Part shown: positions 3,147-50,769 of the stretch, one piece after another
Numbering within the stretch: position 1 is the first letter of the stretch
How the letters are laid out: every line of letters starts with the position of its first letter
DNA from: the human T2T-CHM13v2.0 reference genome, Homo sapiens
Assembly: GCF_009914755.1 (NCBI RefSeq)
Contig: NC_060947.1
DNA: 64,000 bases
Direction: 5' to 3' (one strand)
Made by a program: the position numbers and the translations under genes
The notes under the pieces: model-generated
Database searches by the model: none
Seen by the model: only the letters and a program-made list of their open reading frames with translations
Told to the model about the DNA's origin: nothing

Positions 3147-3930
3147 CTCAAAAAGGAAACTCATATAATGTTGATGAGAATGTAAATTAGCTCAATCAGT
3201 GTGGAAATCAGTATGGAGGTTTTTCAAAATAATTACAAATAGGATTGCCATATAATCCAGTAATCCCACTATGAGGTATATGTCCAAAAAGAGCAAATCA
3301 GTATATCAAAGGGATACCTGTATCACCATGTTTATTACAGCATTATTCACAATAGCCATGGTGTGTAATCAACCTAAATATCCATCAGTGGATTACATGA
3401 ATAAAGAATATGTGTTATATGTACACAATGGAATACTATTCAGCCACAAAAAAGAATATAATCATGTCATTTTCATCAACACGAATGAAACTGAAAGTCA
3501 TTATGTTAAGTGAAATAAGCCAGGTACAGAAATACAAATATTGTATCTTCTCACTCATATGTGGGAGCTAAAAATGTTGATCTCATGGAGATAGAGAGTA
3601 GAATGCTGGTTGCTAGAGGCTGGGAAGGCTGAGTAGGAGATGAAGAGACATTGGTTAATAGGTACAAACATACTCTTAGATAGAAGGAATAAGTTCTGTT
3701 TGATAGCGCAGTAGCATGACTATAGTTAATAATTTGGTGTATATTTCAAAATAGCTAAAAGAGAAGATTTAAAATGTTCCAAATACAAAGAAATGATAAA
3801 CACTTGAAGTGATGGATGTTATAATACCCCAATTTGATAATTACACATTGTATATATGTGTCAAAATATTACATGCACCCCCAAAATATGTACAATTATT
3901 TTGTATCATTTTTTAATTATGAAAAAATTT
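3147..3930 (+). mobile_element. L1MA-type 3' fragment with TSD
   Basis: L1MA-style ORF2 end and 3'UTR (gatctcatggagatagagagtagaatg...). AAGCTACTGTC is duplicated at 3136-3146 and 3931-3941. Confidence 0.8.
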
Positions 3931-3999
3931 AAGCTACTGTCTTCTTGTTTCTTGCTTAAGGTACCTCACTTTTGTCTGGAATGGCAATATATCCCTGCC

Positions 4000-4470
4000 T
4001 CAGAGACAACCATGATTAGTTGAAGCCATTCAAAGTACTTCCATATCTTTTTGGCCAAATTCTTACCTTCCCAGACTCTCTTGCAACTAGAAGTGTTCAT
4101 ATGATAACATTTTGTCCAAAGAAATGTAATGTGGAGTTTTTTGGAAGGCTTTTATGGAAGATATTTTTAAGCTTTCTCCACCCTAATGAGAAGAAAACCT
4201 TATATCTGCAGCCCTTTTTTGCATAAGTATGAGAATGCCGTGCCGACAGCTGCTGCAATTATCTTGCAACAATGAAGCAACAAGAATGAAGACAAAAAGC
4301 CATATACTGAAAGGATGGAGCAAAAGAATAGAAAGTTAGGTCTTTCATGACATCATTGAGCCATTGATGTAACCCTGGAACCACCACCTCCAGACTTCCT
4401 GATAAGTAAACAAAAATTGCATTATGGTTTGAGCCACTGTTAATCAGGTTTTCTGCTACTTGCAGATAAT
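4000..4470. mobile_element. Old MaLR solo LTR (MLT1J/K-like)
   Basis: MLT1-like motifs ccagactctcttgcaactag, cctccagacttcctg, gtttgagccactgttaatcaggttttctg. Confidence 0.5.
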
Positions 4471-4841: not shown

Positions 4842-6431
4842 GCCTCAAACCCCTCAAAGTCATTCATGAGAGTTGGAATCAACTTCCTCTAAACTTTAGT
4901 TAATGTTGACATTTTGACCTCCTCCCATGAATTACAAATCTTCTTAATGACAACTAGAATGGTGAATCCTTTTCAGAAGGTTTTCAATTGACTTTTTCTA
5001 GATCCATCAAAGGAAACACTATCTATTTCAGCTATAACCTTATGAAAAGTATTTCTTAAATAATAAGACTTGAAAGTTGGAATTACTTCTTGATCCATGG
5101 GTTCCAAAATGGATGTTGTGTTAGCAGGCATGAAAACATTAATCTCCTCATTCATCTCCATCAGAGATCTTTGGTAAGCAGGTGTATTATCAACAAGCAG
5201 CACTATTTTAAAAAGAATCTTTTTTCTGTGCAGTAGGTCTTAACAATGGGCTTAAAATATTCATTAGATCATACAGTAAACAGATATGTTGTTATCTAGG
5301 CTTTGTTGCTCCATATATACAGCAAAGTCACAGTAGATTTAGCATAATTATGCAGGGCCATAGGAGATTCAGAATAGTAAATGAGTGTTGCCTTCAACCT
5401 AAAGTCACCAGCAACATTAGCCCCAGCAAGACAGTCATTCTGTTCTTCAAAGTTTGGAAACCAGGCACTGACTTTTCTCTCTACCTAAAGAAGTCCTAAA
5501 TGTCACCCTTTTCCAATAGAAGACTGTTTTGTCTACATTGAATATCTCTTGTTTAGTGTAGCCACCTTCATCAATTAGCTAGATCTTCTGTTTAACTTGA
5601 TGCAGCTTCTACATTAGCACTTGCTGCTTCACCTTGTGCTTTTATGTTATAGAGATGGCTTCTTTCCTTAAACTTTCAAACTTTTCTTCTGCAACTTCCT
5701 CACCTCTTTCAGCCTTGATATAATTAAAAACAGAAGGGCTTTGCTCAGGATTAGGCTTTGACTTAAGGGAAAGTTGTGGCTGGTTTGATCTATCCAGACC
5801 ACTACTAGGTTCTCTATATCAGCAGTAAGGTTATTTCACATTCTTATTTTTAGCAAGTTCACTGGAGTAATGCTTTGAATTTCCTTTAAGAACTTTTTCT
5901 TTGCACTAACAACTTGACTGTTCGGCACAAGAGACCTGGCTATCACTAAGCATAATTATTTCTAGCTTTTGACTTAAAGTGAGAGATGTGCAACTCTTTC
6001 TTTCACTTGAACACGTAGAGGCCATTGTAGTGTAATTAACTGGATTAATTTCAATATTTTTGTGTCTCAAGGAATAGGGATACCCAAAGATAGAGACAGG
6101 GATAGGCAAATGGCCAGTTAGTGGAGCCATCAGAACACATGCAACATGTATCAATTAAGTTTGCTGTCTTATATGGGTGTGGTTCTTGGTGCCCAAAACA
6201 ATTATGAAGTTACATCAAAGAAAACTGATCACAGATTATTATAACAGATATAAAAATAATGAAAAAGTTTGAAGTATTGTGAAAATTGCCAAAATGTGAT
6301 GCAGAAACACTAAGTGAGCACATGCTGGTGGAAAAATAGTACCAATAGATATGTTCAGTGCAGGGTTGCTACAAATCTTCAATTTGTAAAAATGCAATAT
6401 CTGCAAAGTACAATAAAATAAGGTATGCTTG
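4842..6431 (-). mobile_element. Tigger1 DNA transposon fragment, internally deleted
   Basis: Terminus caataaaataaggtatgcttg followed by TA at 6432 is the reverse complement of the Tigger1 end. Minus ORFs give pogo-family transposase pieces: SERKSCTSLTLSQKLEII (5906-6154) and [34 protein letters not shown] (4973-5203). Confidence 0.9.
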
Positions 6432-40334: not shown

Positions 40335-43300
40335 GGGGTGGAGCCAACATGGCCAAATAGGAACAGCTCAAGTCTACAGCTCCCAGTGTGAGTGACACAG
40401 AAGATGGGTGATTTCTGCATTTTCAACTGAGGTACTGGGTTCATCTCACTGGGGAGTGCTGCACAGTGGGTGCAGGACAGTGGATGCAGTGCACTGTGCA
40501 TGAGCCAAAGGAGGGTGAAACATTGCCTCACCCAGGAAGCACAAAGGGTCAGGGAATTCCCTTTCCTAGTCAAAGAAAGGGGTGACAGATGGCACCTAGA
40601 AAATCGGGTCACTCCCACCCTAATACTGTGCTCTTCCAAAGGGCTTAACAAACGGCACACCAGGAGATTATATCCTGCACATGGCTCGGAGGGTACTATG
40701 CCCACGGAGCCTTGCTCATTGCTAGCACAGCAGTCTGAGATTAAACTGCAAGGTGGTAGCGAGGGTGGGGGAGGGGTGCCCACCATTGCTCAGGCTTTAG
40801 TAGGTAAACAAAGCTGCTGGGAAACTCGAACTGGGTGGAGCCCACCACAGCTCAAGGAGGCCTGCCTGCCTCTGTAGGCTCCACCTCTGGGAGCAGGGCA
40901 CAGACAAACAAAAGACAACAAAAACCTCTGCAGACTTAAAAGTCCCTGTCTGACAGATTTGAAGACAGTAGTGGTTCTCCCAGCATGCAGCTTGAGATCT
41001 GAGAATGGGCAGACTGCCTCCTCAAGTGGGTCCCTGGCTCCCAAGTACCCTAACTGGGAGGCACCCCCAAGTAGGGGCGGACTGACACCTCACACGGCCA
41101 GGTACTCCTCTGAGACAAAACTTCCAGAGGAAGAATCAGGCAGCAGCATTTGCGGTTCACCAATACCCGTTGTTCTGCAGCCACTGCTGCTGATTCCCAG
41201 ACAAACAGGGTCTCTAGTGGACCTCCAGCAAACTCCAACAAACCTGCAGCTGAGGATGCAGACTGTTAGAAGGAAAATTGACAACCAGAAAGGACATCAA
41301 AACAAAACACCCATCTGTACATCACCAAAATCAAAGACCAAAGGTAGATAAAACCATAAAGATGGGGAAAAAACAGAGCAGAAAAACCAGAAACTCTAAA
41401 AATCAGAGCACCTCTCCTCTTTCAAAGGAACGCAGCTCCTCACCAGCAATGGAACAAAGCTGGATGGAGAATGACTTTGACGAGTTGAGAGAGGAAGGCT
41501 TCAGAAGATCAAACTACTCCCAGCTAAAGGAGGAAGTTTGAACAAATGGCAAAGAAGTTAAAAACTTTGAAAAAAATTTAGACGAATGGATAACTAGAAT
41601 AACCAATGCAGAGAAGTCCTTAAAGGACCTGATGGAGCTGAAAACCACAGCATAAGAACTACGTGACAAATGCACAAGCCTCAGTAACCGATGCGATCAA
41701 CTGGAAGAAAGGGTATCAGTGATGCAAGACAAAATGAATGAAATGAAGCGTGAAGACAAGTTTAGAGAAAAAAGAATAAAAAGAAATGAACAAAGCCTCC
41801 AAGAAATATGGGACTATGTGAAAAGACCAAATCTACATCTCATTGCTGTACTGGAAAGTGACAGGGAGAATGGAACCAAGTTGGAAAACACTCTGCAGGA
41901 TATTATCCAGGACAACTTCCCCAATCTAGTAAGGGAGGCCAACATTTAGATTCAGGAAATACAGAGAATGCCACAAAGATGCTCTTCGAGAAGAGCAACT
42001 CCAAGACACATAATTGTCAGATTCATCAAAGTTGAAATGAAGGAAAAAATGTTAAGGGCAGCCAGAGAGAAAGGTCGGGTTACCCACAAAGAGAAACCCA
42101 TCAGAGTAACAGCAGACCTCTCGGCAGAAGCTCTACAAGCCAGAAGAGAGTGGTGGCCAATATTCAACATTTTTAAGAAAAGAATTTTCAACCCAGAATT
42201 TCATATCCAGCCAAACTAAGCTTCATAAGTGAAGGAGAAATAAAATCCTTTACAGACAACCAAATGCTGAGAGATTTTGTCACCACCAGGCCTGCCCTAA
42301 AAGACCTCCTGAAGGAAGCACTAAACATGGAAAGGAAAAACCGGTACCAGCCACTGCAAAAACATACCAAATTGTAAAGATGATCAAGGCTAGGAAGAAA
42401 TTGCATCAACTAACGAGCAAAATCACCAGCTAACATCATAATGACAGGATCAAATTCACACATAACAATATTAAACTTAAATGTAAATGGGCTAAATGCT
42501 CCAATTAAAAGACACAGAATGGTAAATTGGATAAAGAGTCAAGACCCATCAGTGTGCTGTATTCAGGAAACCCATCTCACGTGCAGAGACACACATAGGC
42601 TCAAAATAAAGGGATGGAGGAAGATCTACCAAGCAAATGGAAAACAAAAAGAGGCAGGGGTTGAAATCCTAGTCTCAGATAAAACAGACTTTAAACCAAC
42701 AAAGATCAAAAGAGACAAAGAAAGCCATTACATAATGGTAAAGGGATCATTTCAACAAGAAGAACTAAATAACCTAAATATACATGCACCCTATACGGGA
42801 GCACCCAGATTCATAAAGCAAGTCCTTAGTGACCTACAAAGAGACTTAGACTCCCACACAATAATAATGGGAGAATTTAACACACCACTGTCAACATTAG
42901 ACAGATCAATGAGACAGAAAGTTAACAAGGATATCCAGGAATCGAACTCAGCTCTGCACCAAGTGGACCTAATAGACATCTACAGAACTCTCCACCCCAA
43001 ATCAACAGAATATGCATTCTTTTCAGCACCACACCACACCTATTCCAAAATTGACCATAGTTGGAAGCAAAGAATTCCTCAGCAAATGTAAAAGAACAGA
43101 AATTATAACAAACTGTCTCTCAGACCACAGTGCAGTCAAACTAGAACTCAGGATTAAGAAACTCACTCAAAACCGCTCAACTACATGGAAACTGAACAAT
43201 CTGCTCCTGAATGACTACTGGATACATAAAGAAATGAGGGCAGAAATAAAGATGTTCTTTGAAACAAACGAGAACAAATACACAACATACCAGAACCTCT

Positions 43301-46473: not shown

Positions 46474-47271
46474 ATGAACAAACTAATACATGCAACCACT
46501 TGGATGGATCCCAAAGGCATAATACTGAGTGAAAAAAAAAAAGGAAACCTCAAAACGTCATATACTGTAGGATTACTTTTGCATAACATTCTTTTTTAAA
46601 AAAATTATATTCAGGGGGTACATGTGCATGCTTGCTAAGGGTACATGGTGTGAAGCTGATGTTTGGGCTTCTAATGATCCCATCACTCATATAGTGAAAA
46701 TAGTACCCGGTAGAAAGTGTTTTAGCCTCTCCCCTCCTCATTCAATCCCTTCCCCCTTTTGGAATACCTAGTGCCTATTGTTTCCATCATTATGTCCAGG
46801 TGTGCCCAATGTTTACCTCCCACTTTGAAGTGAGAATATTTAATATTTGGTATTCTCTTTATGCAATAATTCACTTAGAATGATGGCCTGCACCTACATC
46901 CATGTTGCTGCAAAGGATATAACTTCATTCCTTTTTATGGCTGCACAGTATTCCATGGTGTATAGGTACCACATTTACTTTATCCAATATGGCATTGAGA
47001 AACACCTAGGTTGATTCCATAGTTTTGCTACTGCAAACTGTGCTGTAATAAACATAAGAGTGCAGGTATCTTTTAATGTTTTCCTTTCAATATACACACA
47101 GTAATAGGATTGCTGGGTCAGATGGTGGTTCTATTTTTCAATCTTTGATAAATCTTCAAACTGCTTTCCACAGTGGCTGAATTAATTTATGTTTCCAAAA
47201 ACAGTGTAAAAGTCTTCTATTTTCTCTGCAGCCTCATAAGCATCTGTCATGCTTTGACTTTTTAATAATAG

Positions 47272-50565
<3,294 letters not shown>

Positions 50566-50639
50566 GAATTGTAAAAAAAAAAAATTATAAATAAAACAAA
50601 GAAGAATATGTGAGAGGAGCTGAATGTGCCCCATAAAGC

Positions 50640-50680
<41 letters not shown>
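50566..50680 (+). other. L1 3' transduction with a second poly(A) tail
   Basis: GAATTGT-A12-TTATAAATAAAACAAAGAAGAATATGTGAGAGGAGCTGAATGTGCCCCATAAAGCCT-A39 lies between the L1 poly(A) and the 3' TSD copy. Confidence 0.93.
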
Positions 50681-50682
<2 letters not shown>

Positions 50683-50769
50683 ATAGTCATTCGACTAGTG
50701 TGAGATGGTATCTTATTGTGGTTTTGATTTGCATTTCTCTAATGATAAGTGATATTGAGCTTTTTAAAA

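What the first reader, a model, noticed from the sequence alone, without database searches (positions are those of the whole stretch)
50540..50694. Two-tier 3' transduction: a lineage barcode for an active source L1
Seen: inside the TSDs the L1 tail reads A26, GAATTGT, A12, 57 nt of non-L1 DNA (50585-50641, AATAAA at 50590), then A39. The distal part GAAGAATATGTGAGAGGAGCTGAATGTGCCCCATAAAGCCT(AAAA) resembles my recollection of the MER58B hAT end (gaagaatatgcgacagagac..tgtggccc.caaagcctaaaa). Known: L1 transcripts read through their weak poly(A) signal and mobilise flanking DNA, and serial events stack poly(A)-separated tags. Inference: the 57-mer is the parent's genomic flank, and GAATTGT-A12 is a tag inherited from a grandparent. 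This records up to three generations of a recently active Ta-1 family.
Basis: partly seen in the sequence, partly recalled or inferred. Interest (0 to 1): 0.85.

Follow-up and report, generated by a model that had tools for sequence, protein, structure and literature searches.

The report
One-step L1 tag, published family
This is a truncated copy of the human jumping gene L1 that carried a 76-base tag from an already published parent element on chromosome 11, and the supposed 'grandparent' tag is only the parent's own insertion scar, so the finding is largely ordinary.

Summary
The tail is exactly as described: A26, GAATTGT, A12, a 57-mer, A39, all inside 14-16 nt target-site duplications.

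The element is a 5'-truncated L1HS-Ta at 47280-50539. It keeps ORF2 from residue 259 onward and has no promoter or ORF1.

A whole-genome search places the 57-mer as native flank directly 3' of a full-length L1 at chr11:95,443,397-95,449,413.

That chr11 element has ...AAAGAATTGTA immediately before its 5' end. GAATTGT is therefore its own target-site duplication, and the following A-run is native chr11 DNA.

The chr11 element is the published 'lineage progenitor' of a 14-member transduction family (Salvador-Palomeque 2019, PMC6425141). Its coordinate, duplication and cloning primer all match.

This chrX copy is not among the 14. Nor are two other copies in this genome: a full-length one in chr1 centromeric satellite, and a chr14 short-arm copy.

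The chr14 copy is a genuine serial transduction, chr11 to chr1 to chr14.

Base differences make chrX a direct daughter of chr11 rather than of the chr1 sibling.

Verdict: observation confirmed, source found, two-tier reading wrong. It is a new member of a known, well-described family, of low to moderate interest.

The parts
47264..47279 (+). 5' copy of the target-site duplication (AA)TAATAGTCATTCGA, within an older host L1
47280..50539 (+). 5'-truncated L1HS-Ta body. It starts at position 2758 of the chr11 parent and holds ORF2 residue 259 to the native stop with no internal stop, plus the 3' UTR. It has no 5' UTR, ORF1 or endonuclease domain.
50540..50565 (+). A26, a copy of the parent's genomically encoded poly(A) tail (A30 at chr11 in this genome)
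50563..50573 (+). AAAGAATTGTA, a copy of the 3' target-site duplication of the chr11 parent element. It is not a grandparent tag.
   Evidence: same 11-mer directly 5' of the chr11 L1; published TSD
50573..50584 (+). A12, the native A-run of the chr11 target site. It is A11 at chr11 and in all 6 other copies, so this copy has one extra A.
50585..50641 (+). 57 nt of chr11 flank (AATAAA at 50590), identical to chr11:95449462-95449518
50642..50680 (+). A39, the new poly(A) tail of this insertion
50679..50694 (+). 3' copy of the target-site duplication. The host older L1 continues after it.

Best explanation
The chrX element is a dead-on-arrival, 5'-truncated L1HS-Ta insertion made by target-primed reverse transcription of a read-through transcript. 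The transcript came from the full-length L1 at chr11:95,443,397-95,449,413 (hg19 Chr11:95169381), the published 'lineage progenitor'.

The transcript skipped the L1's own poly(A) signal. It ran through the parent's encoded A-tail, its 3' target-site duplication (AAAGAATTGTA), a native A11 run and 57 nt of chr11 flank. It was cleaved after ...AAAGCCT and polyadenylated.

The cDNA was primed at a TATT/AAAA-like site inside an older L1 on chrX and stopped at L1 position 2758. The tail is therefore a single-tier 76-nt 3' transduction.

Shown: the anatomy, the source locus, the identity of GAATTGTA with the parent's duplication, and family membership.

Inferred: direct descent from chr11 (from an allele with ORF2 Q159/D523) rather than through a sibling, and the mechanism itself.
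For: 1. Source locus. The 57-mer is exact at 4 places. Only at chr11 does it continue into unique DNA with no poly(A). The next 377 nt of chr11 flank are single-copy: 2 of 2 candidates were scored, and the only other hit was a 43-nt match at 88%.

2. GAATTGT is the parent's duplication. The chr11 5' junction reads ...TTTTTAAAGAATTGTA|GGGGAGGAGCC, and the 3' side reads A30-GAATTGTA-A10....

3. The parent is published. Table 3 of PMC6425141 lists the lineage progenitor at Chr11:95169381 with TSD AAAGAATTGTA. Its cloning primer ends ...TTACATTTTTAAAGAATTGTAGGGGAG, and its reverse genomic primer matches the chr11 3' flank.

4. Insertion hallmarks on chrX. There is a 14-16 nt duplication, a terminal A39 and 5' truncation.

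5. Body differences. chrX has 2 private differences in 3,259 bp. It shares none of the 3 chr1a-private sites in the overlap (2776, 4369, 5720). At 5581 it has G, like chr11 and chr3, whereas chr1a has A.

6. The 5 sites where chrX differs from this genome's chr11 copy (3445-3551) are private to chr11. The other three copies that the table covers at those sites (chr1a, chr3, chr1cen) all agree with chrX. That chr11 copy carries ORF2 H159/H523, which is the paper's 'allele 1'.
Against: 1. Only chr1a, its daughter chr14 and chrX, 3 of the 7 offspring copies, use the distal cleavage site after ...AAAGCCT. This could mean shared descent rather than two independent uses of one site.

2. No canonical AATAAA lies 10-30 nt upstream of that site. 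The AATAAA is 46 nt upstream and a CATAAA is 4 nt upstream, as read from the sequence.

3. The chr11 copy in this genome differs from chrX at 7 positions. The actual parent allele is therefore inferred, not observed.

4. The chrX copy is not among the 14 published members.
Confidence: 0.9

Rival explanations
1. chrX is a granddaughter. It was copied from the chr1p31.1 sibling (chr1:83,892,692-83,899,397), which already carries the 57-mer followed by an encoded A30. A chr1 transcript ending in that A-tract would give the same tail.
For: chr1a is full-length with both ORFs open. It has produced at least one daughter, the chr14 copy that carries 515 nt of chr1 flank. chrX and chr1a share the rare distal end point.
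Against: chrX shares 0 of the 3 chr1a-private sites in the overlap and differs at 5581. It carries no chr1 flank. Its A-run lengths (A26, A12) differ from chr1a and chr14 (A31, A11).
Confidence: 0.12
2. One reading: GAATTGT-A12 is a tag inherited from a grandparent locus, and the 57-mer was added by the parent.
For: The poly(A)-tag-poly(A)-tag-poly(A) layout looks superficially like stacked transductions.
Against: AAAGAATTGTA flanks the chr11 element on both sides, so it is that element's target-site duplication. All 8 copies with the tag trace to chr11, and no other locus holds GAATTGT-A(n) as native flank.
Confidence: 0.02
3. The parent is an unsampled sibling that is absent from this genome but carries the same long tag.
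For: Six of the 14 published members are non-reference polymorphisms. The chr7q21.3 member appears absent here, with a single duplication copy and no L1 within 1 kb on either side. Unseen siblings are therefore plausible.
Against: No positive evidence supports it. chrX needs only 2 private changes from the state shared by all offspring.
Confidence: 0.06

Closest known systems
The Chr11:95169381 'lineage progenitor' L1 transduction family (Salvador-Palomeque et al. 2019, Mol Cell Biol, PMC6425141; sections 6 and 7, Tables 2-3 and passages read)
   Same: The transduced tag begins with the progenitor's duplication AAAGAATTGTA and its A11 run. The internal variants are shared. My independent reconstruction of the chr1p31.1 member matches the paper: an untemplated G, a 539-nt spliced 5' transduction from a HERV-H LTR 126.4 kb upstream, and duplication (A)GAAAAACAAATCA.
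   Different: This chrX copy (duplication TAATAGTCATTCGA) is not in the 14-member Table 3. It carries the long 76-nt form of the tag rather than the 44-nt form described for the donor and de novo elements. It is 5'-truncated and cannot act as a source.
Classical L1 3' transduction (Moran 1999; Goodier 2000; Pickeral 2000; seen only as entries in the reference list of PMC2768975)
   Same: Read-through of the weak L1 poly(A) signal, downstream cleavage, and duplications enclosing the L1 plus its tag.
   Different: Nothing mechanistic differs. The internal 'second tag' is simply the parent's duplication, which every 3' transduction necessarily contains.
Serial (stacked) transductions used to trace L1 lineages (TS-ATLAS of Macfarlane et al., seen only as a passage in PMC4862182)
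   Same: The chr14 short-arm copy in this genome is such a case: chr11 tag, then A30, then 515 nt of chr1 flank, then a poly(A).
   Different: The chrX copy under review has only one tier.

Membership tests
L1 3' transduction made by target-primed reverse transcription | Non-L1 DNA between an internal A-tract and the terminal poly(A), matching the 3' flank of a full-length L1 elsewhere | tested here: met
   The 57-mer is 100% identical to chr11:95449462-95449518, directly 3' of a 6,016-bp L1 with both ORFs open.
L1 3' transduction made by target-primed reverse transcription | Target-site duplications enclosing the L1 plus the transduced DNA, and a terminal poly(A) | tested here: met
   A 14-16 nt duplication at 47264-47279 and 50679-50694, and A39.
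L1 3' transduction made by target-primed reverse transcription | Endonuclease-type T-rich/A target site | tested here: met
   The pre-insertion top strand reads ...GACTTTTT|AATAAT..., which gives a bottom-strand nick at TATT/AAAA (read). The consensus TTTT/AA is recalled.
Chr11:95169381 transduction family (PMC6425141) | Tag begins with the progenitor's duplication AAAGAATTGTA, followed by the A-run and chr11 flank | tested here: met
Chr11:95169381 transduction family (PMC6425141) | Internal variants shared with other members | tested here: met
   chrX matches chr1a, chr3 and chr1cen at all 5 sites (3445-3551) where this genome's chr11 allele is private, and has only 2 private sites.
Chr11:95169381 transduction family (PMC6425141) | Listed among the 14 published members | tested here: not met
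   No entry in Table 3 has this duplication or an Xq position. The 3' junction string is absent from supplementary Table S1, although cells there are cut at 400 characters.
Two-tier (serial) 3' transduction | Two tags that are native flanks of two different source loci | tested here: not met
   The proximal 'tag' is the chr11 duplication plus native chr11 A-run. The feature is met only by the chr14 copy.
L1HS-Ta / Ta-1 | ACA in the 3' UTR for Ta; the 5536/5539 pair for Ta-1 (both diagnostics recalled) | tested here: inconclusive
   ACA is present in ...GATGACACATTAGTGG. The paper calls the family L1-Ta. Ta-1 against Ta-0 was not tested, for lack of a numbered reference.
MER58B hAT element as the origin of the 57-mer | Match to the MER58B consensus | not testable with these tools
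   No repeat library was available. One search shows 14 diverged paralogues (75-90% identity), 11 of which extend to query position 81 or beyond. The flank is therefore an old interspersed repeat of unverified name.

The most novel reading that the evidence does not exclude
Three copies in this complete genome extend the published 14-member family:
- this chrX copy;
- a full-length copy with both ORFs open, inside chr1 centromeric alpha-satellite (chr1:126,641,705-126,647,811);
- a 133-bp copy on the chr14 short arm.

The chr14 copy carries the chr11 tag, then A30, then 515 nt of chr1p31.1 flank, then a poly(A). This would be the first evidence that the chr1p31.1 element has produced offspring in vivo. 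That element was itself launched from a HERV-H LTR promoter through a spliced transcript. The result is a documented three-generation chain, chr11 to chr1 to chr14, two of whose sites are visible only in telomere-to-telomere assemblies.
Probability: 0.5. Interest if true: 0.35.

Novelty: new member of a known kind. Interest (0 to 1): 0.25.

Why it matters
Little changes for L1 biology. The lineage, its chr11 progenitor, its in-vitro activity and even the HERV-H-driven 5' transduction of the chr1 sibling were published in 2019.

The work has three modest uses:
- It corrects a tempting misreading. The first 'tag' after an internal A-tract in any 3' transduction is the parent's own target-site duplication.
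- It adds three copies to a family known to be active in induced pluripotent stem cells and, according to the paper, in tumours. Two of these lie in sequence absent from older references.
- It shows that the chr1p31.1 member has been a source in vivo.

Tried and rejected
Searches that found nothing further:
- Longer transductions. The 377 nt of chr11 flank beyond the 57-mer are single-copy.
- Other daughters of chr1a. Its 515-nt flank is at 100% only at chr1 and chr14, with 40 of 1,832 candidates scored. Its 533-nt 5' extension is complete only at chr1, with 40 of 2,130 scored.

Rejected alternative:
- Segmental duplication as the origin of the chr14 copy. Homology to chr1 ends exactly at a poly(A) 12 nt after an AATAAA, and the older host L1 resumes after it.

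Literature with no hit for this locus:
- Searches.
- 'Find' look-ups in PMC4866827, bioRxiv 10.1101/179705, PMC9311842 and PMC4862182.
- The 11q21 element in PMC2768975 (hg18 chr11:92.5 Mb) is a different locus.

Material I could not reach:
- Szak 2003 and the Science version of the T2T repeat paper were not held.
- Paper reading closed, so the supplements of PMC9311842 were not seen. Any of these tables may already list the chrX, chr14 or chr1-centromere copies.

MER58B naming could not be tested.

Full report
**Observation**

The L1 3' end stops at 50539. It is followed by:
- A26 at 50540-50565;
- GAATTGT at 50566-50572;
- A12 at 50573-50584;
- a 57-nt non-L1 stretch at 50585-50641, with AATAAA at 50590;
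- A39 at 50642-50680.

The whole is bracketed by (AA)TAATAGTCATTCGA at 47264-47279 and 50679-50694.

The L1 is not full-length. Its body starts at 47280, which is position 2758 of the chr11 relative. It encodes ORF2 from residue 259 to the native stop without interruption, and has no 5' UTR, ORF1 or endonuclease domain.

It sits in an older L1 whose sequence continues across the empty site. The pre-insertion top strand ...CTTTTT|AATAAT... gives a TATT/AAAA-type nick site.

**Source**

The window's own genome could be searched. The 57-mer is exact at four places, and the reversed control gave 0:
- chr11:95,449,462 (+);
- chr1:83,892,722 (-);
- chr14:6,284,551 (+);
- the window itself.

Only at chr11 does the 57-mer continue straight into non-A sequence (...AAAGCCTAAAATATTTAATCTC...). 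At the other three places it is followed by a long poly(A).

The chr11 flank beyond the 57-mer is single-copy. Two of 2 candidates were scored, and the only other hit was 43 nt at 88%.

The chr11 L1 is 6,016 bp, at chr11:95,443,397-95,449,413. Its ORF1 (338 aa) and ORF2 (1,275 aa) are open.

**The 'grandparent tier'**

At chr11 the 5' junction reads ...ACATTTTTAAAGAATTGTA|GGGGAGGAGCC. The 3' side reads A30-GAATTGTA-A10-TTATAAATAAAAC....

AAAGAATTGTA is therefore the chr11 element's own target-site duplication, and the A-run is part of the chr11 target site. The chrX tail is a single 76-nt transduction: duplication, A-run and 57-mer.

**Already published**

A literature search led to Salvador-Palomeque et al. 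2019 (PMC6425141). I read sections 6 and 7, Tables 2 and 3, and further passages.

Table 3 lists a 'lineage progenitor L1' at hg19 Chr11:95169381 with TSD AAAGAATTGTA. Its cloning primer ends ...TTACATTTTTAAAGAATTGTAGGGGAG, and its reverse genomic primer matches the chr11 3' flank I fetched.

The paper describes 14 family members and two progenitor alleles. Allele 1 carries Q159H and D523H in ORF2. Both alleles retrotranspose at or above the level of L1.3 in HeLa cells.

The chr11 copy in this genome has H159 and H523, so it is allele 1. All three other full-length copies have Q and D.

**The chr1 sibling, derived before I found the paper**

The layout at chr1 is:
- duplication GAAAAACAAATCA;
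- one untemplated G;
- 539 nt of non-L1 sequence;
- a full-length L1;
- the same 76-nt tag;
- A30.

The 539 nt break down as follows:
- 176 nt identical to chr11:95,316,977-95,317,152, which is a HERV-H LTR U5 end plus a tRNA-His-type primer-binding site (the names are recalled);
- 356 nt identical to chr11:95,318,824-95,319,179;
- the 7 nt (AATTGTA) directly upstream of the chr11 L1.

All three junctions obey GT-AG. The start lies 126,420 bp upstream of the L1.

The paper reports the same: a 539-nt 5' transduction, an untemplated G, and an LTR7Y of a HERV-H about 126 kb upstream, spliced. This agreement validates the search tools but adds nothing new.

**Family census in this genome**

The tag pattern GAATTGT-A(8 or more)-TTATAAATAAAAC matches 8 places, and the control gave 0. 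A 26-mer from the tag gives the same 8, all with 0 mismatches, while the reversed control gave 3 hits at up to 2 mismatches.

By published duplication, five correspond to listed members:
- the chr11 progenitor;
- chr1p31.1_a;
- chr1p31.1_b;
- chr9p23;
- the chr3 'donor L1', which is non-reference in hg19 but present here with the published 44-nt tag.

The published chr7q21.3 member seems to be an empty site here. There is one duplication copy near the expected place and no L1 within 1 kb on either side. That 15-mer lies in an old repeat with 72 genome-wide hits, so this is only probable.

Three copies are not in Table 3: chrX, chr1:126.64 Mb and chr14:6.28 Mb.

**Cleavage sites**

| Transduced sequence ends after | Copies |
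|---|---|
| ...GAAGAAT(A) | chr9, chr1cen |
| ...GAATATG | chr3 |
| ...GTGAGAGG | chr1b |
| ...AAAGCCT | chr1a, chr14, chrX |

**Who is the chrX parent?**

There are 33 variable sites among the 8 copies over 6,016 columns, and 22 of them fall in the range chrX covers.

- chrX has 2 private sites (3241, 3528).
- It differs from this genome's chr11 copy at 5 more sites (3445, 3450, 3462, 3529, 3551). At all 5, chr11 is alone and every other covered copy agrees with chrX. One of them is the D523H change.
- It shares none of the 3 chr1a-private sites in its range (2776, 4369, 5720).
- At 5581 it has G, with chr11 and chr3. chr1a, chr1cen, chr1b and chr9 have A.

The simplest reading is a direct daughter of an allele-2-like chr11 progenitor. 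Descent through chr1a would need all chr1a-specific changes to postdate the event.

Two private changes in 3,259 bp (0.06%) imply a young insertion. With a recalled neutral rate of about 0.5e-9 per site per year this is of the order of 1 Myr, with very wide error, and reverse-transcription errors are not separable.

Whether the insertion is polymorphic could not be tested. The paper aligned the tag to hg19 and reports five reference members, none on Xq. This suggests, but does not prove, that the chrX copy is absent from hg19.

**A real serial transduction elsewhere**

The chr14 short-arm copy (chr14:6,284,368-6,285,179) is made up of:
- 133 bp of L1 3' end;
- the chr11 tag, with chr1a's exact A-run lengths (A31, A11, A30);
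- 515 nt that are 100% identical to the chr1p31.1 flank;
- a 32-A run (5 native, at least 27 added) beginning 12 nt after an AATAAA.

After it, the older host L1 tail resumes. Its duplication is short and ambiguous, about 3 nt.

This is chr11 to chr1 to chr14.

The paper lists no offspring of chr1p31.1_a (Fig. 2 legend).

**MER58B claim**

A 138-nt query across the chr11 flank finds 14 diverged paralogues at 75-90% identity on many chromosomes (19 of 19 candidates scored). Eleven of them extend to query position 81 or beyond, which is past the cleavage point at 57-61.

The flank is therefore part of an old interspersed repeat, and the transduced piece is internal to it, not its end. The name could not be checked.

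**Verdict**

- The grandparent tier is refuted.
- The lineage is already published in detail.
- The chrX copy is an unlisted, inert member of that family.

**Open points**

- The T2T transduction tables and the supplements of PMC9311842 could not be read. They may already list the three extra copies.
- Pattern searches of this genome are stated by the tool to skip simple repeats and very common words. A copy whose tag is heavily mutated could have been missed.

Noticed in passing
L007:5369-6180 (chr14:6,284,368-6,285,179 of the own genome): A short-arm chr14 copy made of 133 bp of L1 3' end, the chr11 tag, A30, 515 nt of chr1p31.1 flank at 100% identity, and a poly(A) 12 nt after an AATAAA. 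It is inserted in an older L1 tail. This is a true serial transduction (chr11 to chr1 to chr14) and is not in the published 14-member table.
   Followed up: yes
L048:906-7012 (chr1:126,641,705-126,647,811): A full-length family member with ORF1 and ORF2 open and duplication GAAAAGCAAGGTTA, inserted in sequence that looks like alpha-satellite (name recalled) near the chr1 centromere. It carries the short form of the tag and is not in the published table.
   Followed up: partly
L005:4842-4948 (positions 3445-3551 of the chr11 L1): This genome's chr11 progenitor has 5 private base differences within 107 bp, one of which gives D523H, plus Q159H further upstream. The clustering suggests a gene-conversion tract rather than independent mutations. 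The paper speaks of only four variants between its two alleles.
   Followed up: partly
L050:1002-1016 on the + strand (chr7:98,082,301-98,082,315): The published reference member chr7q21.3 appears to be an empty site in this genome, with one duplication copy and no L1 within 1 kb on either side. That reference L1 would then be polymorphic. The 15-mer lies in an old repeat (72 genome-wide hits), so orthology is only probable.
   Followed up: partly
L049 (chr9:12,565,700-12,573,100, minus strand): The chr9p23 member has a 5' inversion. L1 positions 3314-4071 are inverted and joined to 4068-end, the pattern expected from twin priming.
   Followed up: no
position 5581 of the family alignment: A G/A difference at a CpG splits the family: chr11, chr3 and chrX have G, while chr1a, chr1cen, chr1b and chr9 have A. 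It is either a polymorphism of the progenitor that marks two waves of offspring, or a recurrent CpG transition.
   Followed up: no
window 40337-40370: The 5' end of an older full-length-looking L1 (3 mismatches to the young L1 5' motif in 31 nt). It may be the start of the roughly 7-kb host element that the young L1 interrupts at 47279/50695.
   Followed up: no
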